A DNA stretch of 64,000 nt from a virus, in IMG/VR virus record IMGVR_UViG_3300043410_001708, positions 1 through 64,000 of that record, one strand, 5' to 3'. The stretch's first letter is position 1, and every line of letters starts with the position of its first letter. The translations under genes and the position numbers were made by a program. The notes beneath the pieces are model-generated. The model saw only the letters and a list, made by a program, of their open reading frames with translations. It was not told where the DNA came from and made no database searches. Below are positions 29,296-52,743 of this stretch, one piece after another.

Positions 29296-30497
29296 CAAAT
29301 GTTCCTTATACCAGCAAAGTTTCTACGTGAGAATTCTGCACGATTAACAAATTTATCAGATTCATTATTGTGGTGAAATACGTAACCTTCTGGATTAGCA
29401 TCTTCACCAGCATGTGAATGTTGAAACTGTTGGTGTTGATTTAAAGTATCAATCAATACACCTTTTGCTGATTGCAACTCTTTATGCATTTTGAAAAGGT
29501 TATTGTAATGTTTCTTATTGCGTTCAACTTTACCAAGTTCATCTTTCAATTCGGCCTGTTTTGCTGTGCGATTCTTTTCAGTTTTTAGTTTATCAATCTT
29601 CTTATTTCTATCTTTTTCCAACCAGTTTTTGAAATTCGTATGGTTAGGTTCTTCACCCGTTCTAACTGTATGATTCATATATGTTTCTAATGAACCACCA
29701 ACGCCATGGTGAGTACTAGTGCCAGCATACATATCACTACCATGAGTATCATGTATTGCTTGTGCAGCTGCAATATGTTTATTAAATTTTTTCTGACTAT
29801 CTGGACTGAAATGAACCTTTGTTGTATCCATTCTAGGATCAACTGAGTATACATCGGGATGTTTAGTAAATTTTTCATGGTTGACTTCGTGTGATGCATT
29901 TAGACTAGATGCATCTTCACCATGATAAGAAAGGTGTGTAACGACACCAATCTTTGCTTTTTTAACTTTTGCAGCTTCATCGCCATGAGCTGTGTATGTT
30001 AGACCTGATGGATTGGGATGAAATGAAGTTCCACCATTCTTCTCTTGTTTCTTATCACCTTTGTCTGTACCAAACATCATATCACCTTGATATACACCTT
30101 CTTTTGGTGCAATCTTAGGTAAATGTGTCAGTGCATCTTTTAATTTGGCGGCCAGACCAGGTGCATGGCCATGGTTCATGTCTACATCTTTTGGTGTGTA
30201 GTTAATCTTTGGTGTCTTGTTAAAAGCAGACTTTGATGCAACAAAGAATTTACCATTTTTTGGATGGTGACCATACACTAGTGCTGGTGAACCATCATAT
30301 TTTGTAGTTAATTCAGAGGTTTTTTTGCCTGACTTAATGTGTTCTGCTGCAGCAGTTAGTGAAGAAATAGCGTGTTTTGCACCCTTTTCACCTGTTTGTA
30401 GAGGTCGGTCTTCCACATGCGTCAAGTGTTTAATCTGACGGCTGGCGCCTTCTTCAGGATCTTCTTGTTCTGTTAAAAAAGTTTTAAACGATAACAT
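29295..30497 (-). CDS. DUF6267-like protein with ligase-type KxDG motif
   Basis: HLTHVED, TKYDGSPA, QGDMMF, EGYV, KFVNR.EFS..NF. Confidence 0.75.
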   Translation of the reverse strand: MLSFKTFLTEQEDPEEGASRQIKHLTHVEDRPLQTGEKGAKHAISSLTAAAEHIKSGKKTSELTTKYDGSPALVYGHHPKNGKFFVASKSAFNKTPKINYTPKDVDMNHGHAPGLAAKLKDALTHLPKIAPKEGVYQGDMMFGTDKGDKKQEKNGGTSFHPNPSGLTYTAHGDEAAKVKKAKIGVVTHLSYHGEDASSLNASHEVNHEKFTKHPDVYSVDPRMDTTKVHFSPDSQKKFNKHIAAAQAIHDTHGSDMYAGTSTHHGVGGSLETYMNHTVRTGEEPNHTNFKNWLEKDRNKKIDKLKTEKNRTAKQAELKDELGKVERNKKHYNNLFKMHKELQSAKGVLIDTLNQHQQFQHSHAGEDANPEGYVFHHNNESDKFVNRAEFSRRNFAGIRNI

Positions 30498-30540
30498 TGT
30501 CTACCTATGAAATACAACACACTTTGGTTGTCCGTAGGGT

Positions 30541-30581
30541 TATTTATAATGGATTGTATCACAGATTCACAAATTTGTCAA
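30541..30581 (-). promoter_or_regulatory. T4 late promoter plus overlapping sigma70 promoter
   Basis: TATAAATA (30541-30548); TTGACA-17-TACAAT. Confidence 0.75.
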
Positions 30582-30610
30582 ATCTTGGCTTCGATATATA
30601 GCGCACTAAA

Positions 30611-31279: not shown

Positions 31280-31992
31280 TATTTTATAATGACTGCGATA
31301 TTATTATCCCAAATGTTGATTTTTGGAATAGTTGGATTATAAATGTTAATGATTGAAGGATCGTGAGCCCAATTTGGTGGCATTGGTAGATGCATCAAAG
31401 TTTTAAAATCACATTCAACACCACTCAGAAATTTTTCCAAAGGATAAACATCAAAATTCAAAATATCCTCAATGATAAAGATACCACCTTTTTTCAACTT
31501 GTGAAATGAATTTGCGAAAAATGTAATGTTTGCATGGGCTTCGTGAAGTCCATCATCAATGATGATATCAAATTCTTCTGGTATTTTACTCCACATATCT
31601 CTGATGATTTCTGGATCGGTTTGGTCACAGTAGAATGTTTTAATTCTATCGGTTTGAAACAAAATATCTTTATCAATGTCTGCACCAAAGATTTTTCCTT
31701 TAGGAAAATATTCTGCAAACGCTCTCATGGATGCTCCAGGCTTACCATTTGCACCCATGTTTGATTTGATACTGGTGTTGTTTGTACCAAGTCCTAATTC
31801 AAAGAAATTAACTTCTTTGTCTTTCAATCCAAAATTTTGGAATAACGCATCATAAAAATTTGTGTAGTTGTGCCATGTACTCTTATCTGATCCATGTTCA
31901 GCAAATGTTTTGCACATTTCTGTTCTTGCACCAAAAAATTCTTGTTTCATGTATGCGAAAATAATTTTTTCAATAATTTCTTTGTTTTCCAT
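31279..31992 (-). CDS. class I SAM-dependent methyltransferase
   Basis: GSDK..H.Y, ELGLG, GADID, DIIIDDGLH, GGIFIIED. Confidence 0.8.
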   Translation of the reverse strand: MENKEIIEKIIFAYMKQEFFGARTEMCKTFAEHGSDKSTWHNYTNFYDALFQNFGLKDKEVNFFELGLGTNNTSIKSNMGANGKPGASMRAFAEYFPKGKIFGADIDKDILFQTDRIKTFYCDQTDPEIIRDMWSKIPEEFDIIIDDGLHEAHANITFFANSFHKLKKGGIFIIEDILNFDVYPLEKFLSGVECDFKTLMHLPMPPNWAHDPSIINIYNPTIPKINIWDNNIAVIIK

Positions 31993-31993
31993 A

Positions 31994-32803
31994 TTATACC
32001 TCTTTATTAAAGTCACTAAAAATAACAAACGGATCAAGACCCAGTTGATGGTCGGGAATCTTATGTAGTTCAAATAAATCTGGTTCTTTAATTGTTGATA
32101 ACAACATAAGAGTTTGGTCATCATCAACTAAACCATTTTCCAATAATCCAATTAAACTAGATTTCATAAGTTCTTCAAATTTTGGCCATGCAGTTACACC
32201 ACCAACAATTTTTGCACCAAGGATGTAAACATCGTTGGTTGAAATTATCTCTTGTATTGGTTTACCATCATAGTCTTTGTAATTGAATAGATGCATCTTA
32301 TTAACATCAAAATCAAAAGACCATTTTCTACTTGCAGGAATTTTGTCAGCAGTACGGCAATAACCAAAATCTAACCAAGAAACCAAATCACTTTTAACCA
32401 TATTGTGTTTAATTGCAAGATTAACAAATATAGATTTCAAAAAATTTACAGCAACATAATGTGCATTCCAATATTCAGGATTTGCTCTCTGTGATGGACT
32501 AATTGAGTTTTGAAAGCTTTCTGATTTATGTACGTTATGTATATTTTTTATCAGTTCATCAAATTGTGTGAATATATCAAATGAAATCCAGTTTGTGACA
32601 CGACCTTCTCTTAATGGTTGTAATCTTTCGATAATATCAGGTGTCGAAAACACCACCATTTCGTTTTCCATTTTAGCCATGTGTGAAAAACGTTCAATAT
32701 ATGTGTCGGTTGTTCTTTGTAGGTAATGTGGCAAACCTTTATCTGGTGTCCAATCTCCACGTCCTATATCATAAAAAGCAGTAACTATAGTAATATCACT
32801 CAT
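31994..32803 (-). CDS. HtrL/YibB (WlaTC) family glycosyltransferase-like protein
   Basis: ITIVTAFYDIGRGDW, NPEYW, WLDFGYCR, DDDQ. Confidence 0.85.
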   Translation of the reverse strand: MSDITIVTAFYDIGRGDWTPDKGLPHYLQRTTDTYIERFSHMAKMENEMVVFSTPDIIERLQPLREGRVTNWISFDIFTQFDELIKNIHNVHKSESFQNSISPSQRANPEYWNAHYVAVNFLKSIFVNLAIKHNMVKSDLVSWLDFGYCRTADKIPASRKWSFDFDVNKMHLFNYKDYDGKPIQEIISTNDVYILGAKIVGGVTAWPKFEELMKSSLIGLLENGLVDDDQTLMLLSTIKEPDLFELHKIPDHQLGLDPFVIFSDFNKEV

Positions 32804-46460: not shown

Positions 46461-46533
46461 TGGTTGCGGGTCACGGAGTTGCACCGGAACTGAGGATTAT
46501 GAGCCCACTGTGATACTATTTCACCAACCCGCT
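46461..46533 (-). tRNA. tRNA-Met(CAT), initiator-like
   Basis: Cloverleaf, CT-CAT-AA, GGG anticodon stem, 1:72 mismatch, CCA. Confidence 0.75.
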
Positions 46534-46722: not shown

Positions 46723-46968
46723 TTATTCTCCGTAGATATAAGCAATATCTTCAATCTTCACTACAAAATAATCTTGCACTGTTACAGCTTTACCCCAATC
46801 TGGTTGCACCACATCACCAATCTGTAACTCAGTAACATCTGGTCCAACTGCAAGTACTTTTGCTCTATCAGGTTCTTCGGAGTGTCTTAGGATGATTCCT
46901 GAAGCGGTCTGTTTAACATTCTCAAGCCGTTCAATCAATACTTTATCGTGCAAGGGTTTAATATTCAT
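46723..46968 (-). CDS. groES: GroES-like co-chaperonin
   Basis: KPLHDKVLI, TASGIIL, VLAVGP; GAGGA SD. Confidence 0.85.
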   Translation of the reverse strand: MNIKPLHDKVLIERLENVKQTASGIILRHSEEPDRAKVLAVGPDVTELQIGDVVQPDWGKAVTVQDYFVVKIEDIAYIYGE

Positions 46969-46981
46969 AATGTCCTCAAAA

Positions 46982-47048
46982 TGGAGCGGTCTTCTGCTTT
47001 GCTCAGATAACACAAGGGGGTGCCTTGTATCGTACTATTACAAACCGC
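46982..47048 (-). ncRNA. atypical tRNA-Gly-like RNA
   Basis: GCGGTTT/AGACCGC acceptor + TCCA; aberrant D, anticodon and T arms. Confidence 0.6.
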
Positions 47049-47128: not shown

Positions 47129-47175
47129 ATATAACTATATATGCATCATTTTAAAACACACATAATGCATTTTAA

Positions 47176-47198
47176 AATGAGGACTCTTGCGAGTCCCC
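47176..47198 (-). terminator. terminator-like hairpin
   Basis: GGGGACTC-GCAA-GAGTCCTC-ATTTT. Confidence 0.5.
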
Positions 47199-47204
47199 AT
47201 ACCA

Positions 47205-48632
47205 TCACAATACTTTGTAACGGTCATCCATGATGGTTTTAAGCATCACAGATTCTGGTGTAAAGGTTTCTAAGTCACCCGCCAACAGTGGTTTTACGAC
47301 TGCTGGTGAGAAACCAGATACCAATGCAGTACCAGAAGTGTCGAACTTTACTGGAGCGTTGCCGTATGCGGCATTCAAGTTCCAGAATACAACCTTTGGC
47401 AAAGTGTATCCTGCTTCTTTGTACTTACGTGCAATCATCTGCATAGCAGAGTCATCATGTCTAACGCAAGCGTTAAATTGCATGTCTGACAGAATCAATA
47501 CCATCGCTGGCATTTCTTCTTGTGGCACGCCACCTTTTACTGCTACATCAAGGATTTTTGCAAATGCCTTGTGTAGGTCGGTAGACATACCCCAATCAGA
47601 TTTAACCATTTGGTCAATCTTTTGATTGATGTTACCTTTCAAGTGCAACAATTCTGGATTGGTAGAGAAAGTTAGGAAGGTGTCCTTGAACTTGCCTTCA
47701 TTCTTATCTGCCAAGTATAGTCCCAAAGAGACTGCTACTTCCAAACAGGTTAGACCTGATTTGGAACCATAACCACCTGCAGCGCAGGTCATTGAACCAG
47801 AAACATCCACCAAAGGTAGAATGTTTGCATCGCCAACAAAGTTAGGCAAAGCCTCCCATTGTTTTTGCACCAAGTCCAATTCGGTCTTGTCGAATTTCAT
47901 GTAACCACCGATACGGCCTTTCAGCACATCGTATGGGAACACAGCACCTGCATTAACCTTAACTTCTGGATTATCACCCTTAACCAACGAAGCAACATAT
48001 GCTGCATAAGTTGGAGTGTTACGGTTAAAAGCCTTCTTGTAACGGGATGCCGCTACGGAAGGTACGTGTGAGAAATTGATGGAATCCCAGTCTTTCGCAC
48101 ACATTTGAGTTTCAACCACTTTGGTCATTTCAACCAAAGACTTACGGTAAAACTTTGGGGACATACCAAAGAACTGACGGATTTCAGCCGCTAGTTTACC
48201 TTGGCGAGGAGTCCACTTTGCAGCCAATCCATTCTTCGCACGAAGCGCATCACCCAACATAGTGAATGCTGCTGACTTCATAACATCAGAATCGAATACA
48301 AAAATGTCGTCCCAACGGCCCAATTCAGGAACCTTTGTCAACAATGCTTTTGCGGCTTCTACGTCATTCTTTTCCAAATAACGCAAGATAGTACGGAACG
48401 ATTCACGTTCACCGGCACCACCACGAGCATCACGTAACCAAGCAGCAACACGCAAAGCGAGTTCACGGTTTTCTGCCATTGCAGCTGCGAAAGCAGGCAC
48501 AATGTTTTTGCCACGGGAAGCACCTGCATTGTAGAACAAATCTACAACTGCATTAGCAGTGGACTTACGAGCCTTCATACCGTTTGCGGTACGGGCATCT
48601 TGATTAACAACGGCATCTACAAAAGTTGACAT
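47205..48632 (-). CDS. DUF2828-family vWA protein (TROVE/Ro60-like)
   Basis: RDARGGAGER, GRWDD, AAKW.PR, DVSGSM, SDMQF, FWNL, SGFSP. Confidence 0.8.
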   Translation of the reverse strand: MSTFVDAVVNQDARTANGMKARKSTANAVVDLFYNAGASRGKNIVPAFAAAMAENRELALRVAAWLRDARGGAGERESFRTILRYLEKNDVEAAKALLTKVPELGRWDDIFVFDSDVMKSAAFTMLGDALRAKNGLAAKWTPRQGKLAAEIRQFFGMSPKFYRKSLVEMTKVVETQMCAKDWDSINFSHVPSVAASRYKKAFNRNTPTYAAYVASLVKGDNPEVKVNAGAVFPYDVLKGRIGGYMKFDKTELDLVQKQWEALPNFVGDANILPLVDVSGSMTCAAGGYGSKSGLTCLEVAVSLGLYLADKNEGKFKDTFLTFSTNPELLHLKGNINQKIDQMVKSDWGMSTDLHKAFAKILDVAVKGGVPQEEMPAMVLILSDMQFNACVRHDDSAMQMIARKYKEAGYTLPKVVFWNLNAAYGNAPVKFDTSGTALVSGFSPAVVKPLLAGDLETFTPESVMLKTIMDDRYKVL

Positions 48633-48653
48633 AACTTACTCCTCATAAAAAAA

Positions 48654-48773
48654 CAACAGAATACATTTTTTAGCGCACTACCAATTGTGCTATTCACGCC
48701 GAAGCGTAAAACAGGATTCGAACCTGTAACCTCTCCGTTATAAGCGGAAAAATTGTTTGCTGTGAGTATTCTA
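48654..48773 (-). ncRNA. Y-RNA-like element 1 (permuted tRNA module)
   Basis: AGAATAC-tca-CAGCA...GTATTCT-GTTG enclosing anticodon, T, closed acceptor and D arms. Confidence 0.75.
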
Positions 48774-48777
48774 AAAA

Positions 48778-48933
48778 CAACAGGTTAGCTTTCTACTTTT
48801 TGTTTACAGTGAGAAATCGAAACTCACCTTCGTTAGGACCATTTCAATAAACACCTTCAAAGGTCGAAACCTCCAGTGTTTACCATAGTTACCTAACAGT
48901 TCAGTATTATTGAATAATGCTGTAACTAACCTA
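48778..48933 (-). ncRNA. Y-RNA-like element 2
   Basis: AGGTTAG-tta-CAGCA...CTAACCT-GTTG; two TTCGA T-loop-like hairpins. Confidence 0.7.
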
Positions 48934-48961
48934 AAACCTTTTCAATCTTTCAATACTGTGT

Positions 48962-49014
48962 ATTGTAACACAAAAATTTGTTGTAGTCAAGCAGTATGTT
49001 GTAAACATACCACA
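48962..49014 (-). promoter_or_regulatory. sigma70 promoter with upstream palindrome
   Basis: TTGACT-17-TACAAT; TGTTGT-N6-ACCACA 6 bp upstream. Confidence 0.75.
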
Positions 49015-49019
49015 ATATT

Positions 49020-49093
49020 TGGTGCCCCATGACAGAATCGAACTGCCGTACCCGGATTACAAAACCGGTGTAATACCATTATACTAATAGGGC
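49020..49093 (-). tRNA. tRNA-Thr(TGT)
   Basis: Cloverleaf, CCA. Confidence 0.92.
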
Positions 49094-49101
49094 AAAAAAC
49101 T

Positions 49102-49176
49102 TGGAGCGGGTAGTGGGAATCGAACCCACAACTAAACCTTGGCAAGGTCTTGTGTTACCACTAGCACCATACCCGC
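49102..49176 (-). tRNA. tRNA-Gly(GCC)
   Basis: Cloverleaf, CCA. Confidence 0.92.
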
Positions 49177-49185
49177 ATCATGTGT

Positions 49186-49214
49186 ATTATATATGCTTTA
49201 CAAACAATTGTCAA
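49186..49214 (-). promoter_or_regulatory. sigma70 promoter
   Basis: TTGACA-17-TATAAT. Confidence 0.8.
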
Positions 49215-49234
49215 GCACATTTTTAAAAAATATT

Positions 49235-49318
49235 TGGTACGAGTAACCGGAGTCGAACCGGTACGCACAAGGCGGCAGATTTTAAGTCTGCTGGGTCTAC
49301 CAATTCCCCCATACTCGC
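49235..49318 (-). tRNA. tRNA-Leu(TAA)
   Basis: Type II cloverleaf. Confidence 0.92.
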
Positions 49319-49319
49319 A

Positions 49320-49904
49320 TCACATGGCAGGTCCGTTTCCATTACGGAAACCGACCTCACCACCTTCTTCTTTGATTCGTTTCATAACATCTTCAAAAAG
49401 AATAGGACGAAAATCTGTTTGTTCAACACAAACACAATGATAACGAACATCTGGTGTGTCCAGTTCTTGACCTCCGTTCCATGTCATCATCACACGACCT
49501 GTATGAAGGTGACCGTGAATGTTTGTTCCGAAACGACCAAGACTGGCGGGATGAATTGGAATATGTGAAAGAATCATTCCGTTCATTACATGATACGCAC
49601 GAAGTTCACGGAAGTGTATTCTATATTCATCATCACGGAAGATATCGTGGTTACCACGAATAAGAACTTTATCACCGTTAAGTCTATGCATAATGCTAAG
49701 TGCTTTACGATTGATTACAACATCACCAAGATGATATACTTTATCAGTTGGCTTTACTGTTTCGTTCCAACGCTTAACCATTTCTTCATCCATTTCATTT
49801 GGATCGGTCCATGGTCTAATCTTTTCACCTGTTATGGAGTCGGTGAATCTACACACACCAGCGTGACCAAAGTGTGTGTCACTTACTAAAAATACTGATG
49901 GCAT
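49320..49904 (-). CDS. calcineurin-like metallophosphoesterase
   Basis: SDTHFGH, LGD, GNHD, HGHLH; AGGAG SD before ATG 49904. Confidence 0.9.
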   Translation of the reverse strand: MPSVFLVSDTHFGHAGVCRFTDSITGEKIRPWTDPNEMDEEMVKRWNETVKPTDKVYHLGDVVINRKALSIMHRLNGDKVLIRGNHDIFRDDEYRIHFRELRAYHVMNGMILSHIPIHPASLGRFGTNIHGHLHTGRVMMTWNGGQELDTPDVRYHCVCVEQTDFRPILFEDVMKRIKEEGGEVGFRNGNGPAM

Positions 49905-49922
49905 AATAAACTCCTGAAAAAA

Positions 49923-49997
49923 TGGCCCGGCGTGAGGGAATCGAACCCCCATTCGCACTTTAGAAGAATGCTGTCCTATCCATTGAACGAACGCCAG
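49923..49997 (-). tRNA. tRNA-Arg(TCT)
   Basis: Cloverleaf, CCA. Confidence 0.9.
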
Positions 49998-50002
49998 AAA
50001 AA

Positions 50003-50443
50003 TCATACTCGGATGTATTCGTAATTAACTGTTTCTTCATTTTCTCTAAAAACAATAGCGCCGTTCTTCAAGTGAAAACGCTTTGCCATTTCAGTTTTTG
50101 GAGATAATGTCACAAATCTTTTTATGTATGGCATATTATTTTCTATGTGTGATACTGCATCAAATATAAGTGTTCCACCAGCACCTGGTGCATAACTCCA
50201 TATTGTATAAAATACCGCAATCTCTGGATCGTTTACCTTTTCAAACAATTCAGATTCTTTTGTCGGAACATTTGTCTGATAACTTACGCATGTGATTGCT
50301 AATACTTTACCATTTGTATCCCGAAGAACAAAAATATCTTTGTTATTACCTACTCTTTCCGTAGTTGGAATGTTAGGCCTGACAGGATCTTCATCCAATA
50401 AATTAAAAAAACTATCTGTGATGGATTTTATAATATGTAACAT
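50003..50443 (-). CDS. GNAT-fold-like hypothetical protein
   Basis: FYTIWSY..GAG, VTLSP, A.RFH.KNG. Confidence 0.6.
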   Translation of the reverse strand: MLHIIKSITDSFFNLLDEDPVRPNIPTTERVGNNKDIFVLRDTNGKVLAITCVSYQTNVPTKESELFEKVNDPEIAVFYTIWSYAPGAGGTLIFDAVSHIENNMPYIKRFVTLSPKTEMAKRFHLKNGAIVFRENEETVNYEYIRV

Positions 50444-50459
50444 GATAACTTAAATATAA

Positions 50460-50536
50460 TGGTGCCCCAGAGGAGACTCGAACTCCTAAAATTTGGTTTC
50501 TAAGACCAACACGTATACCAATTCCGTCACCGGGGC
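50460..50536 (-). tRNA. tRNA-Leu(TAG), short variable loop
   Basis: Cloverleaf, CT-TAG-AA. Confidence 0.85.
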
Positions 50537-50549
50537 AATAAATACTTAT

Positions 50550-50774
50550 ATGATACCTTACGAACAAAGACAAACAGTAAAACCACTTTATGAGTTATTC
50601 TCAAATGAAACATATGTGCCTCATGCTTATTATTGTATTGAATCTGATTTTATCGAATCATATGTTACTGAGATAAAATCTTTTAATGATGATGAAATAT
50701 ATATTCAACCTGAAAAAGAGTTTGTCTTAACAACATTAAAACAAGTTGGTGCTCCTACTAAGAATCGAACTTAG
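50550..50774 (+). CDS. hypothetical protein antisense to tRNA array
   Basis: AATAAATA late-like promoter immediately before ATG 50550. Confidence 0.5.
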   Translation: MIPYEQRQTVKPLYELFSNETYVPHAYYCIESDFIESYVTEIKSFNDDEIYIQPEKEFVLTTLKQVGAPTKNRT

Positions 50775-50820
50775 GATACATCCTTACCATGGATGTGGTA
50801 TGCCATTTACCTATAAGAGC
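50747..50820 (-). tRNA. tRNA-Thr(GGT)
   Basis: Cloverleaf. Confidence 0.9.
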
Positions 50821-50825
50821 ATGAT

Positions 50826-50900
50826 TGGTGGGTCGTCAGAGAATCAAACTCTGTTCTTCCGGTTAAGAGCCGGTTGCTTCATCACTTAAGCTTACAACCC
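50826..50900 (-). tRNA. tRNA-Lys(CTT)
   Basis: Cloverleaf. Confidence 0.88.
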
Positions 50901-50903
50901 ATA

Positions 50904-50980
50904 TGGTACCCAAGGTGGGATTCGAGCCCACATAATCTTGCTTTTGAGACAAGCACGTATACCAATTCCGTCACTTGGGT
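50904..50980 (-). tRNA. tRNA-Leu(CAA), short variable loop
   Basis: Cloverleaf, CT-CAA-AA. Confidence 0.85.
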
Positions 50981-50985
50981 ATATA

Positions 50986-51087
50986 CAACAGGATAGTTTT
51001 TTTACAGTGGGAATTGAACCCACAAGGTTTGCTTAGAAGGCAAATTGCGAACCATTCGCATGTGAATTTTTTGCTGAACCTATCCTA
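50986..51087 (-). ncRNA. Y-RNA-like element 3 (D, anticodon UCU and T arms inside)
   Basis: AGGATAG-gtt-CAGCA...CTATCCT-GTTG. Confidence 0.75.
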
Positions 51088-51092
51088 AAACT

Positions 51093-51168
51093 TGGTGCTG
51101 CCTAGTAGAATCGAACTACTTTCCGAGGTTCTTCAGACCCCTGCTATGACCACATCAGCTAAAGCAGC
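51093..51168 (-). tRNA. tRNA-Phe(GAA)
   Basis: Cloverleaf. Confidence 0.92.
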
Positions 51169-51176
51169 ATATTGAA

Positions 51177-51343
51177 TTTGTAAGTATTGGGACCTCCCTC
51201 ATTTCCCAACATTTTACCGGTATTTTCTGTGAAGCGGCCGACCGGTTAGAGGTACGTAGTAATAGTTGATACTTGGCATCGGCAAAGCACTATCCTCATT
51301 CTTGTATGCCTACAAAAACTTTCTCAACATCTACACTTACAAA
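51177..51343 (-). ncRNA. unknown structured RNA
   Basis: 11-bp closing stem, several internal helices. Confidence 0.5.
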
Positions 51344-51346
51344 ACT

Positions 51347-51421
51347 TGGTACCTTGTGACGGGATCGAACCGCCGACCTTCTCCTTGTAAGGGAGACACT
51401 CTACCGCTGAGTTAACAAGGC
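51347..51421 (-). tRNA. tRNA-Val(TAC)
   Basis: Cloverleaf. Confidence 0.93.
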
Positions 51422-51434
51422 ATAAAATTTACTT

Positions 51435-51509
51435 TGGGGAGATATATGAGAATCGAACTCATGATAACGGAATCACAACCCGTGGTTTTGCCACTAAACT
51501 AATATCTCC
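51435..51509 (-). tRNA. tRNA-His(GTG)
   Basis: G-1:C73, cloverleaf. Confidence 0.92.
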
Positions 51510-51557
51510 CCAAAGTAAACTTTGGAATTTTTAACCGTGTTTATTCACGGGGGTCTG

Positions 51558-52046
51558 TTAGACCTGCAAAGCTTCTTGTTCTGCCAAGATTCTTTTCAAT
51601 CTGTCAGCACAAAAACTTGCAGCTGGTGCGTCTGGTTTAACCATAGGTGTCATGTTACATGTACCCTTGATATAACCAATCGCTTGTTGTACAACACATG
51701 AACTTCCGTACAAGTCATCTTTGTTTAAGTCCAAATGAACTTCAACATGGAAATCTTCTAATACATCAGCCAAGTCTTGGAACAATTCTGAAACCTTATA
51801 CACTTCGGTCATTAACCGCATTGCAGGTTTACTTTTCTTATGGTCATAATCCAACTCACGTTGAACGAAACCAAAAATCTTACAACCATGGCGGCCATCA
51901 ATATGAACTACGACAGCCAAAGCATAGTCTGCATACCATACACCGTTTACACGGATACGTTCTGAGTCAGCACCCAAATATACTTTCGTATCTGGTCCTT
52001 GACTTGCAAGGAATTGCTTAACTTCTTGTATGTCGAACTTTTTCAT
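51558..52046 (-). CDS. RNase H-like YkuK (DUF458) family protein
   Basis: YLGADSE, RLMTEV..S, EVHLD, KP.A.AAS..AD; AGAAAGG SD. Confidence 0.8.
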   Translation of the reverse strand: MKKFDIQEVKQFLASQGPDTKVYLGADSERIRVNGVWYADYALAVVVHIDGRHGCKIFGFVQRELDYDHKKSKPAMRLMTEVYKVSELFQDLADVLEDFHVEVHLDLNKDDLYGSSCVVQQAIGYIKGTCNMTPMVKPDAPAASFCADRLKRILAEQEALQV

Positions 52047-52076
52047 ATCAATCACCTTTCTTTTTTTTACTAACAC

Positions 52077-52150
52077 TGGCATCCCGACAGGGACTCGAAC
52101 CCCGACCAACAGTTTTGGAGACTGGTATGCTGCCATTACACTATCGAGAT
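52077..52150 (-). tRNA. tRNA-Trp(CCA)
   Basis: Cloverleaf. Confidence 0.92.
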
Positions 52151-52156
52151 ATAATA

Positions 52157-52220
52157 CAACAGGATAGATTTTACTTTTCAAGTTACAAGTTTGAAGTATT
52201 TTATTGCTGTTACTATCCTA
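52157..52220 (-). ncRNA. Y-RNA-like element 4 (minimal)
   Basis: AGGATAG-taa-CAGCA...CTATCCT-GTTG. Confidence 0.7.
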
Positions 52221-52224
52221 AAAA

Positions 52225-52298
52225 TGGTCCTCAGAACAAGAATCGAACTTGTGATGGCCGGTTATCAGCCGACTGTTATACCATTTAACTATCCGAGG
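52225..52298 (-). tRNA. tRNA-Ile(GAT)
   Basis: Cloverleaf. Confidence 0.92.
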
Positions 52299-52302
52299 AA
52301 TA

Positions 52303-52378
52303 TGGAGGGTCTTGAGGGATTCAAACCCCCGACCAATTGCTTCGTAGGCAACTACTCTGTTCACTGAGCTAAAGACCC
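52303..52378 (-). tRNA. tRNA-Arg(ACG)
   Basis: Cloverleaf. Confidence 0.9.
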
Positions 52379-52384
52379 ATAATC

Positions 52385-52459
52385 TGGTGGTTCAGGTGAG
52401 AATCGAACTCACACAAGGCACCGTATGAAGATGCTGCACTGCCACTATGCTACTGAACC
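52385..52459 (-). tRNA. tRNA-Met(CAT), elongator-like
   Basis: TT-CAT-AC loop. Confidence 0.85.
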
Positions 52460-52464
52460 AAATT

Positions 52465-52539
52465 TGGTGGACCGAGGGGGAATCGAACCCCCAACTGTGA
52501 CTTGCAAGGCCACTGTGTTCCCAATTATACCATCAGCCC
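52465..52539 (-). tRNA. tRNA-Ala(TGC)
   Basis: G3:U70, cloverleaf. Confidence 0.93.
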
Positions 52540-52595
52540 AAATTTGTTGTTGACAATTTATCTCATTATACGCCGTCAACAAAGGCGAGTATTAC

Positions 52596-52669
52596 TGGTC
52601 TCGGTGGCAAGAATCGAACTTGCGCCACATGCTCCCAAAGCACGGATGATACCATTTCACCACACCGAG
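52596..52669 (-). tRNA. tRNA-Pro(TGG)
   Basis: Cloverleaf. Confidence 0.92.
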
Positions 52670-52675
52670 AAAATA

Positions 52676-52739
52676 CAACAGGATCGTTTTTGTCGCTAGA
52701 CATCCAAAAGTTAGCTTGTTTATTGCTGAACCGATCCTA
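52676..52739 (-). ncRNA. Y-RNA-like element 5 (minimal)
   Basis: AGGATCG-gtt-CAGCA...CGATCCT-GTTG. Confidence 0.7.
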
Positions 52740-52743
52740 AAAC

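What the first reader, a model, noticed from the sequence alone, without database searches (positions are those of the whole stretch)
47205..52739. Family of five covarying Y-RNA-like ncRNAs associated with a DUF2828/vWA (Ro60-like) gene
Seen: five minus-strand elements (48654-48773, 48778-48933, 50986-51087, 52157-52220, 52676-52739) share UUUU-[7-nt arm]-NNN-CAGCA...[variable insert]...A-rich-[complementary arm]-GUUG. The arms covary: AGAAUAC/GUAUUCU, AGGUUAG/CUAACCU, AGGAUAG/CUAUCCU (twice), AGGAUCG/CGAUCCU. Invariant CAGCA can also pair with the terminal UGUUG (pseudoknot or switch). Two copies sit in tandem between a dedicated promoter and the start of the DUF2828-type gene; three are interleaved with tRNAs. 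Established: bacterial Ro60 (TROVE+vWA) genes are flanked by Y RNAs with a conserved protein-binding terminal stem and a variable, often tRNA-like domain. Inference: the helical+vWA DUF2828 protein is a Ro60 analogue, and these RNAs are an unrecognised Y RNA class lacking the standard Ro60 bulged-helix sequence. The leader copies may also autoregulate the gene.
Basis: partly seen in the sequence, partly recalled or inferred. Interest (0 to 1): 0.9.

Follow-up and report, generated by a model that had tools for sequence, protein, structure and literature searches.

The report
Phage Ro60-like protein with partner RNAs
A 106-kb uncultured phage carries five small RNA genes in its tRNA cluster that share one conserved "handle" but hold different tRNA-like inner parts. 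They lie just upstream of a gene for a protein that folds like the RNA-binding ring Ro60, so they are most likely its partner RNAs, in an RNA family I found in no paper or RNA catalogue.

Summary
All five elements are real. Each has a 7-bp closing stem, a 3-nt linker, CAGCA(A), a variable insert, an A-rich run, the 3' arm and a G-starting tail. Chance expects 0.12 matches to the 5' pattern.

- **Stem:** across 138 model hits in relatives, 945 of 945 stem cells pair and 6 of 7 pairs show compensatory changes.
- **Strand:** every hit lies on the strand of the DUF2828+vWA gene. In 72 of 73 relatives one copy ends 9-30 nt before its start codon.
- **Protein:** the model (pLDDT 92) matches Ro60 over its whole length (Z 21.2).
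- **Spread:** the pairing recurs in Felix O1, Listeria, Campylobacter, Vibrio, Cronobacter, cyanobacterial and mycobacterial phages.
- **Blind control:** of five phages, only KVP40 had the RNAs, and only KVP40 had the gene.
- **Cargo:** inserts are tRNA parts. Copy 5 is a YrlA-like permuted tRNA and copy 3 a cloverleaf without an acceptor stem.

The proposed CAGCA:UGUUG pseudoknot is not supported. No binding or transcript evidence could be obtained.

No Rfam family or paper describes these RNAs, so this is a new variant of the Ro60/Y-RNA kind. This scan has already noted the same system on other DNA, in at least 52 genomes. The handle also resembles Dictyostelium Class I RNAs.

The parts
52676..52742 (-). 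Handle RNA 1: UUUU, arm AGGAUCG, linker GUU, CAGCAA, small hairpin cargo, A-run, arm CGAUCCU, tail GUUG. Lies between tRNA-Asn and tRNA-Pro.
   Evidence: Sequence; model R1 69.1 bits; stem in the minimum-energy fold; flanking tRNAs.
52157..52223 (-). Handle RNA 2: arm AGGAUAG, linker UAA, CAGCAA, hairpin whose loop holds CUUGUAA (an anticodon-loop look-alike, UGU), arm CUAUCCU, GUUG. Lies between tRNA-Ile and tRNA-Trp.
   Evidence: R1 62.8 bits.
50986..51090 (-). Handle RNA 3: arm AGGAUAG, linker GUU, CAGCAA. The cargo is a tRNA cloverleaf body (D-like, anticodon-like with loop CUUCUAA, T arm) whose acceptor stem is replaced by the handle. Lies between tRNA-Phe and tRNA-Leu(CAA).
   Evidence: R1 43.8 bits; Rfam tRNA 35.8 bits at 50999-51067, not called by ARAGORN; three hairpins in the fold.
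48778..48936 (-). Handle RNA 4: arm AGGUUAG, linker UUA, CAGCA, 130-nt cargo with a long hairpin and a T-arm-like hairpin, arm CUAACCU, GUUG. First of the two leader copies.
   Evidence: Pairing search; fold z-score -3.4 with the closing stem. R1 aligns only its 5' part, 14.5 bits.
48654..48776 (-). Handle RNA 5: arm AGAAUAC, linker UCA, CAGCAA. The cargo is a permuted tRNA: anticodon-like arm with loop CUUAUAA, T arm, UUCG-capped stem, D arm. Then arm GUAUUCU and GUUG. It ends 9 nt before the ribosome-binding site.
   Evidence: Rfam YrlA 36.5 bits, E 1.4e-6 in the local search, gathering score 69; R1 36.8 bits; fold z-score -3.2.
48962..48990 (-). Promoter-like site TTGACT-17-TACAAT with TG, about 25 nt upstream of handle RNA 4.
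   Evidence: Consensus scan, 10 of 12. This is a consensus match only.
47205..48632 (-). Gene for the 475-aa Ro60-fold protein: helical ring domain (DUF2828) plus a vWA domain (DUF7788) with a complete MIDAS motif. GAGGAG ribosome-binding site at 48639-48644.
   Evidence: Pfam PF11443 E 1.3e-20 and PF25043 E 6.6e-47; PHROG 850; model pLDDT 92.3; Ro60 Z 21.2 over 407 residues; D276, S278, S280, T351 and D383 conserved.
47174..47198 (-). Terminator-like hairpin GGGGACUC-GCAA-GAGUCCUC followed by AUUUU, just after the stop codon.
   Evidence: Read from the sequence. Not listed by the scan; inference.

Best explanation
The five elements are genes for small modular RNAs that act as partner RNAs of the Ro60-fold protein encoded at 47205-48632, in the way Y RNAs partner Ro60.

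Each RNA has a constant handle: a 7-bp terminal stem starting A-G and ending C-U, a 3-nt linker, single-stranded CAGCAA, an A-rich 3' strand and a G after the stem. I infer that the protein recognises this handle. Each RNA also has a variable cargo made of tRNA parts: an anticodon-arm look-alike, a cloverleaf without an acceptor stem, or a permuted tRNA as in YrlA.

Copies 1-3 would be transcribed with the tRNA operon and released by ordinary tRNA end processing, because each fills the gap between two tRNAs (inferred). Copies 4 and 5 form the leader of the protein's own mRNA. Protein bound to copy 5, 9 nt from the ribosome-binding site, could limit its own translation (inferred).

The likely role is to present tRNA-like baits or sensors, or to recruit host RNA enzymes. 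This would protect or repair the phage's translation apparatus against host tRNA-directed defences (speculative).

What is shown: the RNA family, its covariation, its linkage to the gene and the protein's fold. What is not shown: binding, transcripts and function.
For: **RNA family.**
- Five exact pattern matches against 0.12 expected.
- 184 model hits in 80 related contigs, all on the gene strand.
- In 138 aligned hits, 945 of 945 stem cells pair, 6 of 7 pairs carry double changes (202 cells), and the covariation score is 0.577 against 0.135 when shuffled. Slid controls pair at 33-50%.

**Linkage to the gene.**
- 72 of 73 relatives have a copy ending 9-30 nt before the start codon.
- Of 80 viral stretches picked by the 5' RNA motif alone, 30 hold the gene, always on the same strand.
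- Of 9 further contigs, 6 hold it elsewhere, including all 3 complete genomes.
- 80 genome or MAG contigs with distant relatives of the gene carry 121 handles on the gene strand and 7 on the other.
- The same handle lies next to the gene in Felix O1, cyanophage BUCT-ZZ01, Vibrio nt-1, Listeria LMTA-34, mycobacteriophage Rumpelstiltskin, Campylobacter F336 and Cronobacter S13.
- Blind control: model R2 hits KVP40 (54.8 and 31.6 bits) but not T4, T5, SPO1 or phiKZ, and only KVP40 has the gene.

**Protein.**
- The top 12 Foldseek PDB matches are all Ro60/TROVE, E 7e-8 to 4e-6.
- Z 21.2 to Xenopus Ro60, rmsd 3.9 A over 407 residues; vWA-only proteins follow at Z about 10.
- The four best profile matches among PDB sequences are Ro60 proteins, but weak, E 0.05-0.1.

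**Cargo.**
- YrlA model hits on copy 5 (36.5 bits) and on two elements of a distant locus (41.6 and 35.1 bits), where the handle stem takes the place of YrlA's terminal stem.

**Precedent.**
- Ro60 genes have Y RNAs within 4 kb on the same strand (PMC4201824).
- A Thermus phage Ro60 binds two RNAs encoded upstream of its gene (PMC12135203).
- Bas63 gp130, described as Ro60-like and directly upstream of the tRNA genes, counters the Ppl defence (PMC11482910).
Against: - No experiment or read data show that the RNAs exist as discrete molecules or bind the protein.
- The handle lacks the GNCGAA motif through which Rsr is thought to read YrlA, so the binding mode cannot be carried over from Ro60.
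- Pfam's TROVE model does not match the protein, and sequence-level kinship to Ro60 is marginal.
- In nt-1 and KVP40 the RNAs lie 7-9 kb from the gene.
- 25 of 80 distant loci showed no handle under my strict search.
- Genomic linkage alone cannot separate 'partner RNA' from 'co-regulated RNA'.
Confidence: 0.7

Rival explanations
1. The elements act only in cis. They would be processing, stability or translation-control structures of the tRNA operon and of the gene's leader (for example punctuation for RNase P, Z or E), and would not be stable RNAs that form a particle with the protein.
For: Copies 1-3 sit exactly between tRNA genes. A copy lies 9-30 nt from the start codon in 72 of 73 relatives. 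No transcript data exist.
Against: - In Rumpelstiltskin the copies lie downstream of the gene with no tRNA annotated in the 17-kb stretch.
- CAGCAA and the stem geometry stay the same across phages of Gram-positive, Gram-negative, cyanobacterial and mycobacterial hosts, whose RNases differ.
- Presence tracks the DUF2828 gene, not tRNA arrays: T4, T5 and SPO1 have tRNA genes (my own knowledge) but no handle.
- The elaborate tRNA-like cargos are not needed for punctuation.
Confidence: 0.12
2. The RNAs are free-standing tRNA-mimic decoys or baits for host anticodon nucleases or tRNA-modifying enzymes. They would work without the Ro60-like protein, which would merely be a neighbour in the same counter-defence island.
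For: - 74 of 136 distinct elements carry an anticodon-loop-like hairpin. The commonest loops are CUUGUAA (UGU), CUUCUAA (UCU) and CUUUUAA (UUU).
Against: - The invariant part is the handle, not the cargo, and a decoy needs no conserved handle.
- The handle's presence follows the gene across very distant phages.
- Some copies carry no tRNA-like cargo.
- This idea fits inside the best explanation as the cargo's role.
Confidence: 0.1
3. The elements are selfish or mobile repeats, such as miniature inverted-repeat elements or tRNA-derived retro-elements, that have spread within tRNA arrays.
For: Several copies per genome, short inverted termini and variable inserts.
Against: - The arms differ between copies yet always stay complementary, which points to selection on RNA pairing.
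- Copies are strictly of one strand (184 to 0).
- 7-bp arms are too short for typical transposase ends.
- The position in front of one gene is fixed.
- CAGCAA is conserved over very distant phages.
Confidence: 0.03

Closest known systems
Ro60 (Rsr) with Y RNAs, above all bacterial and mycobacteriophage YrlA (Rfam RF02553; Chen et al. 2014, PMC4201824)
   Same: - A ring-plus-vWA protein fold.
- Small RNAs encoded within a few kb on the same strand.
- A terminal stem made by the 5' and 3' ends, with a conserved motif beside it.
- A tRNA-like module with a T arm and a D arm in permuted order (copy 5).
- Several different RNAs for one protein.
   Different: - The protein belongs to Pfam DUF2828/DUF7788, not TROVE.
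- The RNA motif is N3-CAGCAA next to a 7-bp stem, not GNCGAA in a bulged helix.
- Many members carry only an anticodon-arm look-alike or a plain hairpin.
- Copies lie inside tRNA operons and in the gene's own leader.
- YrlA scores stay well under the gathering score.
Thermus phage phiLo Ro60 with Yrl1 and Yrl2 (PMC12135203; PDB 9KOP, 9L5Y)
   Same: A phage-encoded Ro60-fold protein with two partner RNAs encoded directly upstream of its gene. The model here matches it at Z 15.5-16.8.
   Different: phiLo's protein is a recognisable TROVE protein and its RNAs carry the CGAA motif. Binding is shown there and not here.
Bas63 gp130 (PhageMaP preprint, PMC11482910)
   Same: It is described as structurally like Ro60 and as lying directly upstream of the tRNA genes. 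Felix O1, as I recall of the same genus as Bas63, shows this arrangement. The authors guessed that some 'tRNA genes' might be Y RNAs. Loss of the gene sensitises the phage to the Ppl defence.
   Different: The RNAs were not identified there. I did not check directly that gp130 is the DUF2828 orthologue.
Dictyostelium Class I RNAs (Rfam RF01414; Kjellin et al. 2021, PMC7919456)
   Same: - About 60 nt and AT-rich.
- A 5'-AAG start, a short covarying terminal stem whose first G is invariant, then CCUUACAGCAA beside the 5' arm.
- A variable middle and a 3' end of CUGU.
- The phage handle reads A-G-N5, N3, CAGCAA ... N5-C-U, G-U.
- RF01414 aligns end to end with copy 5 (15.3 bits) and with two Felix O1 elements (20.1 and 19.7 bits).
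   Different: - All scores are far under the gathering score of 41.5.
- The two short window copies give no hit.
- The linker is 4 nt there and 3 nt here.
- Class I RNAs have their own eukaryotic upstream promoter element (DUSE).
- The known direct binder is the RRM protein Rnp1A/CIBP.
- No DUF2828 protein is known to bind them.

Membership tests
Ro60 / TROVE protein family | Ring of helical repeats followed by a vWA domain with a MIDAS motif | tested here: met
   The model has pLDDT 92.3. Z is 21.2, rmsd 3.9 A, over 407 residues to 1yvr, and the ten best chains are all Ro60. The MIDAS residues D276, S278, S280, T351 and D383 are conserved.
Ro60 / TROVE protein family | Match to Pfam TROVE (PF05731) or clear sequence similarity to Ro60 | tested here: not met
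   Pfam gives only DUF2828 and DUF7788 at E up to 0.01. phmmer against PDB sequences finds nothing. A profile search gives Ro60 as the four best matches, but only at E 0.05-0.1.
Ro60 / TROVE protein family | Binds Y RNAs or misfolded RNAs | not testable with these tools
   No tool here predicts or measures RNA-protein binding.
YrlA / Y RNA (Rfam RF02553) | Score at or above the gathering score (69 bits) | tested here: not met
   Copy 5 scores 36.5 bits. The other copies give no match.
YrlA / Y RNA (Rfam RF02553) | GNCGAAN0-1G motif near the 5' end (the presumed Rsr contact) | tested here: not met
   A pattern search of all five elements finds none.
YrlA / Y RNA (Rfam RF02553) | 5' and 3' ends form a stem, and a tRNA-like domain has T and D arms | tested here: met
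   The stem is present in all five. T and D arms are present in copy 5 and, in normal order, in copy 3; they are absent from copies 1 and 2.
YrlA / Y RNA (Rfam RF02553) | Encoded within about 4 kb of the Ro60-type gene on the same strand | tested here: met
   All five lie 21-4100 nt upstream on the same strand.
Dictyostelium Class I RNA (Rfam RF01414) | Score at or above the gathering score (41.5 bits) | tested here: not met
   15.3 bits for copy 5. Felix O1 elements score 20.1 and 19.7 bits.
Dictyostelium Class I RNA (Rfam RF01414) | Short terminal stem, CAGCAA-containing motif next to the 5' arm, 3' end CUGU | tested here: met
   The sequence shows AG-N5, N3, CAGCAA ... N5-CU, GUUG. The published description is in PMC7919456.
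Dictyostelium Class I RNA (Rfam RF01414) | Own gene with the DUSE upstream promoter element in a dictyostelid genome | tested here: not met
   The elements lie in a phage tRNA operon with bacterial-type promoter-like sites.
tRNA (Rfam RF00005) | Complete cloverleaf with an acceptor stem | tested here: not met
   The cargo of copy 3 reaches 35.8 bits (gathering score 29). ARAGORN does not call it, and the fold shows the handle where the acceptor stem should be.

The most novel reading that the evidence does not exclude
The phage handle RNAs and the orphan Class I RNAs of Dictyostelium would be one RNA family, read by DUF2828-type Ro60-like proteins in both. Such proteins also occur in plants and fungi. 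That would give the amoeba's unexplained developmental RNAs a protein partner and a likely viral or bacterial origin. A first test is to look up whether DDB_G0281243, the function-unknown protein pulled down with Class I RNA DdR-21 (bioRxiv 10.1101/2020.04.05.026054), or any other dictyostelid protein, carries DUF2828 and DUF7788.
Probability: 0.15. Interest if true: 0.9.

Novelty: new variant of a known kind. Interest (0 to 1): 0.75.

Why it matters
DUF2828 proteins occur in at least 701 sequenced phages, among them Felix O1, KVP40, Listeria and Campylobacter phages and cluster L mycobacteriophages. They also occur in thousands of metagenome proteins and in plants and fungi.

If the handle RNAs are their partners, a second large Ro60/Y-RNA-type ribonucleoprotein class exists. 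Its RNA code (stem, N3, CAGCAA) is simple enough to mutate and test.

It would also explain unannotated gaps and 'tRNA-OTHER' calls in phage tRNA clusters. It would give a mechanism to look for behind the reported counter-defence role of the Bas63 protein. And it would suggest that phages display tRNA parts on a protein ring during conflicts over tRNA.

Tried and rejected
- **Pseudoknot or switch (CAGCA with UGUUG):** rejected. In 138 aligned hits the A of CAGCA is C in 8 with no change in its partner. The last G of GUUG is A or U in 47 while its partner C never varies. Other lineages have tails GGU, GUA, GAU or GUG with CAGCAA unchanged.
- **Extending the stem through the linker:** read by eye on alignment A2; no consistent pairing.
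- **RF01414 on the two short window copies:** no hit at E up to 10. It also gave no hit on six elements of locus L243.
- **Single-sequence search against PDB sequences:** nothing.
- **NCBIfam:** no family for the protein.
- **Dictyostelium homologue:** the search for longer homologues listed plants and fungi but no dictyostelid. Avesson et al. 2011 is not in the library. DDB_G0281243 appears in one preprint only.
- **The 178-nt spacer at 51169-51346:** its fold is no better than shuffles, z-score -0.55.
- **MAFFT alignment across lineages:** it misplaced several 3' arms, so the general model R2 was built from a model-guided alignment instead.
- **Complex prediction:** not used, because it takes no RNA.

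Full report
**What is in the window**

The minus strand from about 46.4 to 56.9 kb is a phage tRNA cluster. ARAGORN tRNAs there and Rfam adds one more. The window belongs to a 106-kb viral record that CheckV rates 63% complete. A 99% identical copy of the gene is in IMG/VR.

Each reads UUUU, a 7-nt arm, 3 nt, CAGCA(A), a variable insert, an A-rich run, the complementary arm, and GUUG. The 5' pattern has five exact matches on the minus strand against 0.12 expected. No further copy lies elsewhere in the record.

- Copies 1-3 each fill the gap between two tRNA genes.
- Copies 4 and 5 lie in tandem between a promoter-like site and the start codon at 48632.
- Copy 5 ends 9 nt before the GAGGAG ribosome-binding site.

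**Is it an RNA family?**

A pairing-aware search of 80 related viral contigs gave 139 elements (144 with the window's five). All but two stray matches lay upstream of the gene, and all were on its strand, with many different but always complementary arms.

A covariance model built from 55 short copies found 184 hits in those contigs, all on the gene strand. In 138 model-aligned hits:

- 945 of 945 stem cells pair.
- 6 of 7 pairs show compensatory double changes, in 202 cells.
- The covariation score is 0.577 against 0.135 in shuffles.
- Slid controls pair at 33-50%.

This alignment is fitted to the model, so the pairing percentage leans towards the structure. The diversity of arm sequences and the complete strand bias do not depend on that. 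The closing stem is therefore well supported.

The invariant positions are C, G, C, A, A of CAGCAA, the G-C second pair, and the G that follows the 3' arm.

**The proposed CAGCA:UGUUG pairing**

It is possible on paper in this lineage but is not maintained.

- The A of CAGCA is C in 8 hits with no change in its partner.
- The last G of the tail is A or U in 47 hits while its partner C never varies.
- In other phage lineages the tail is GGU, GUA, GAU or GUG while CAGCAA is kept.

I read CAGCAA as a single-stranded recognition element, not a helix strand.

**The protein**

The 475-aa product matches Pfam DUF2828 and DUF7788 and PHROG 850, named 'RNA-binding protein'. It does not match TROVE.

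An AlphaFold model built on 80 diverse relatives has pLDDT 92.3.

- The 12 best Foldseek matches in the PDB are all Ro60/TROVE structures.
- VIA-align gives Z 21.2, rmsd 3.9 A, over 407 residues to Xenopus Ro60. Ten Ro60 chains come first, and vWA-only proteins follow at about Z 10.
- A sequence profile finds Ro60 proteins as its four best PDB matches, but only at E 0.05-0.1.

So this is a very distant Ro60 homologue by fold. Homologues occur in 701 phage records.

**Linkage of RNA and gene**

*Forward test.* 72 of 73 relatives with enough upstream sequence have a copy ending 9-30 nt before the start codon.

*Reverse test.* I picked 80 viral stretches by the 5' RNA motif alone.

- 60 have a complete element, and 30 hold the gene inside the short stretch, always on the same strand.
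- Of nine further contigs, six hold the gene elsewhere, including all three complete genomes. The three without it are fragments rated 9-30% complete.

*Distant lineages.* The same handle lies next to the gene in:

- Felix O1: four copies in gaps of the tRNA array, one with a permuted-tRNA cargo.
- Cyanophage BUCT-ZZ01: three copies upstream.
- Listeria LMTA-34: three copies upstream.
- Mycobacteriophage Rumpelstiltskin: three copies downstream.
- Campylobacter F336: two copies upstream.
- Cronobacter S13 and Vibrio nt-1.

In 80 genome or MAG contigs whose DUF2828 relatives are 31-64% identical, a strict search finds 121 handles on the gene strand and 7 on the other. 55 of the 80 loci are positive.

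*Blind control.* I searched five phages before knowing their gene content. The general model R2 hit only KVP40 (54.8 and 31.6 bits). Only KVP40 has the gene; T4, T5, SPO1 and phiKZ have neither.

That is not what is seen.

**Cargo**

- Copy 5 folds into an anticodon-like arm, a T arm, a UUCG-capped stem and a D arm. It matches Rfam YrlA over the full model at 36.5 bits, below the gathering score of 69.
- Copy 3 is a cloverleaf body whose acceptor stem is replaced by the handle.
- Copy 4 has a long hairpin and a T-like arm.
- Copies 1 and 2 carry one small hairpin each.

In a distant locus, two elements match YrlA at 41.6 and 35.1 bits, with the handle stem aligned to YrlA's terminal stem. The family therefore looks like YrlA with a different protein-binding module. 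The GNCGAA motif of YrlA is absent from all five copies.

Across this lineage, 74 of 136 distinct elements carry an anticodon-loop-like hairpin. The commonest loops are CUUGUAA, CUUCUAA and CUUUUAA. These are look-alikes of the tRNAs for Thr(UGU), Arg(UCU) and Lys(UUU).

[quoted passage not shown] That makes a bait, decoy or damage-sensor role plausible, but it remains speculation.

**What is known**

- Chen et al. 2014 (PMC4201824) found YrlA next to TROVE-annotated genes only, in 254 bacteria and 22 phages.
- A Thermus phage Ro60 binds two upstream RNAs that carry the CGAA motif (PMC12135203).
- The PhageMaP preprint calls Bas63 gp130 Ro60-like, places it beside the tRNA genes, shows that it counters Ppl, and guesses that some tRNA genes may be Y RNAs (PMC11482910).

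I found no paper on the CAGCAA handle RNAs. No Rfam family reaches its gathering score on them.

Notes from earlier runs of this scan describe the same system on other DNA, in at least 52 genomes. They agree with my reading, which I reached from my own tests.

**Dictyostelium**

Rfam's Class I RNA model aligns end to end with copy 5 (15.3 bits) and with two Felix O1 elements (20.1 and 19.7 bits).

The reported E-values of 4.2, 0.93 and 1.2 are multiplied by 4227 families. For that one family alone they correspond to about 1e-3 to 2e-4 in the stretches searched.

The published description of Class I RNAs matches the handle closely: an AAG start, a short covarying stem, CCUUACAGCAA, a variable middle, a CUGU end, and about 60 nt.

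One protein pulled down with Class I RNA DdR-21, DDB_G0281243, has no known function. I could not check its domains. The resemblance is real; common descent or a shared partner is unproven.

**Verdict**

The main interpretation survives every test I could run, but binding, transcripts and function remain untested.

Noticed in passing
window 51558-52046 (-): A gene for an RNase H-like protein (Pfam PF04308, YkuK/DUF458 type; PHROG 11311) lies inside the tRNA and handle-RNA array. A homologue is present in 42 of 80 related viral loci and 3 of 7 distant phage loci, but in none of the 80 MAG loci. It may be an accessory nuclease of the system.
   Followed up: partly
window 49320-49904 (-) and 50003-50443 (-): A metallophosphoesterase (PHROG 547, with a weak PdeM-like match) and a small protein with a weak malonyl-CoA decarboxylase C-terminal match lie between tRNA genes. 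The phosphoesterase recurs in 34 of 80 related loci.
   Followed up: partly
window 50829-50900 (-) and 46464-46533 (-): Rfam calls a tRNA at 50829-50900 (49.7 bits) that ARAGORN misses. It also calls a weak tRNA-like match at 46464-46533 (33.4 bits), just after a 62-aa ORF.
   Followed up: no
window 49186-49214 (-): A perfect 12-of-12 sigma-70 consensus (TTGACA-17-TATAAT) lies just before tRNA-Gly(GCC). A second promoter-like site is at 52524-52553. The tRNA array seems to have several internal promoters.
   Followed up: no
window 51169-51346 (-): A 178-nt spacer between tRNA-Val and tRNA-Phe has a closing stem (UUGUAAGU/ACUUACAA) but no CAGCA motif. Its fold is no better than shuffles, z-score -0.55.
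   Followed up: partly
contig of L163 (handle G004), 30214-30588 and 31551-32564: The DUF2828 gene is split into two open pieces (residues 13-139 and 136-474) about 960 nt apart. This could be an intron or a homing-endonuclease insertion.
   Followed up: no
proteins P0152 and P0155: Longer relatives fuse DUF2828+DUF7788 to a 2H phosphoesterase / 2'-5' RNA ligase domain (PF13563) or to a CCHC zinc knuckle (PF00098). Both fusions fit an RNA-directed role.
   Followed up: partly
L213 (Listeria phage LMTA-34) 10850-16225: Downstream of the gene lies an RNA-repair set: RtcB-type 'tRNA splicing ligase', an RNA ligase, a phosphoesterase and a metal-dependent phosphohydrolase.
   Followed up: no
L216 (Cronobacter phage S13) 9896-10138; Felixounavirus records: Public annotations place a 121-nt 'tRNA-Ser' and a 113-nt 'tRNA-OTHER' just after the gene, near or overlapping handle RNAs with tRNA-like cargo. 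Several Felix O1-like records also call 'tRNA-OTHER' there.
   Followed up: partly
window 46723-47013 (-): A GroES-like co-chaperonin gene (Pfam Cpn10, E 6.9e-10) lies just downstream of the Ro60-like gene and tRNA-Gly(UCC). A homologue lies near the gene in 23 of 80 relatives and in one of the seven distant phage loci.
   Followed up: no
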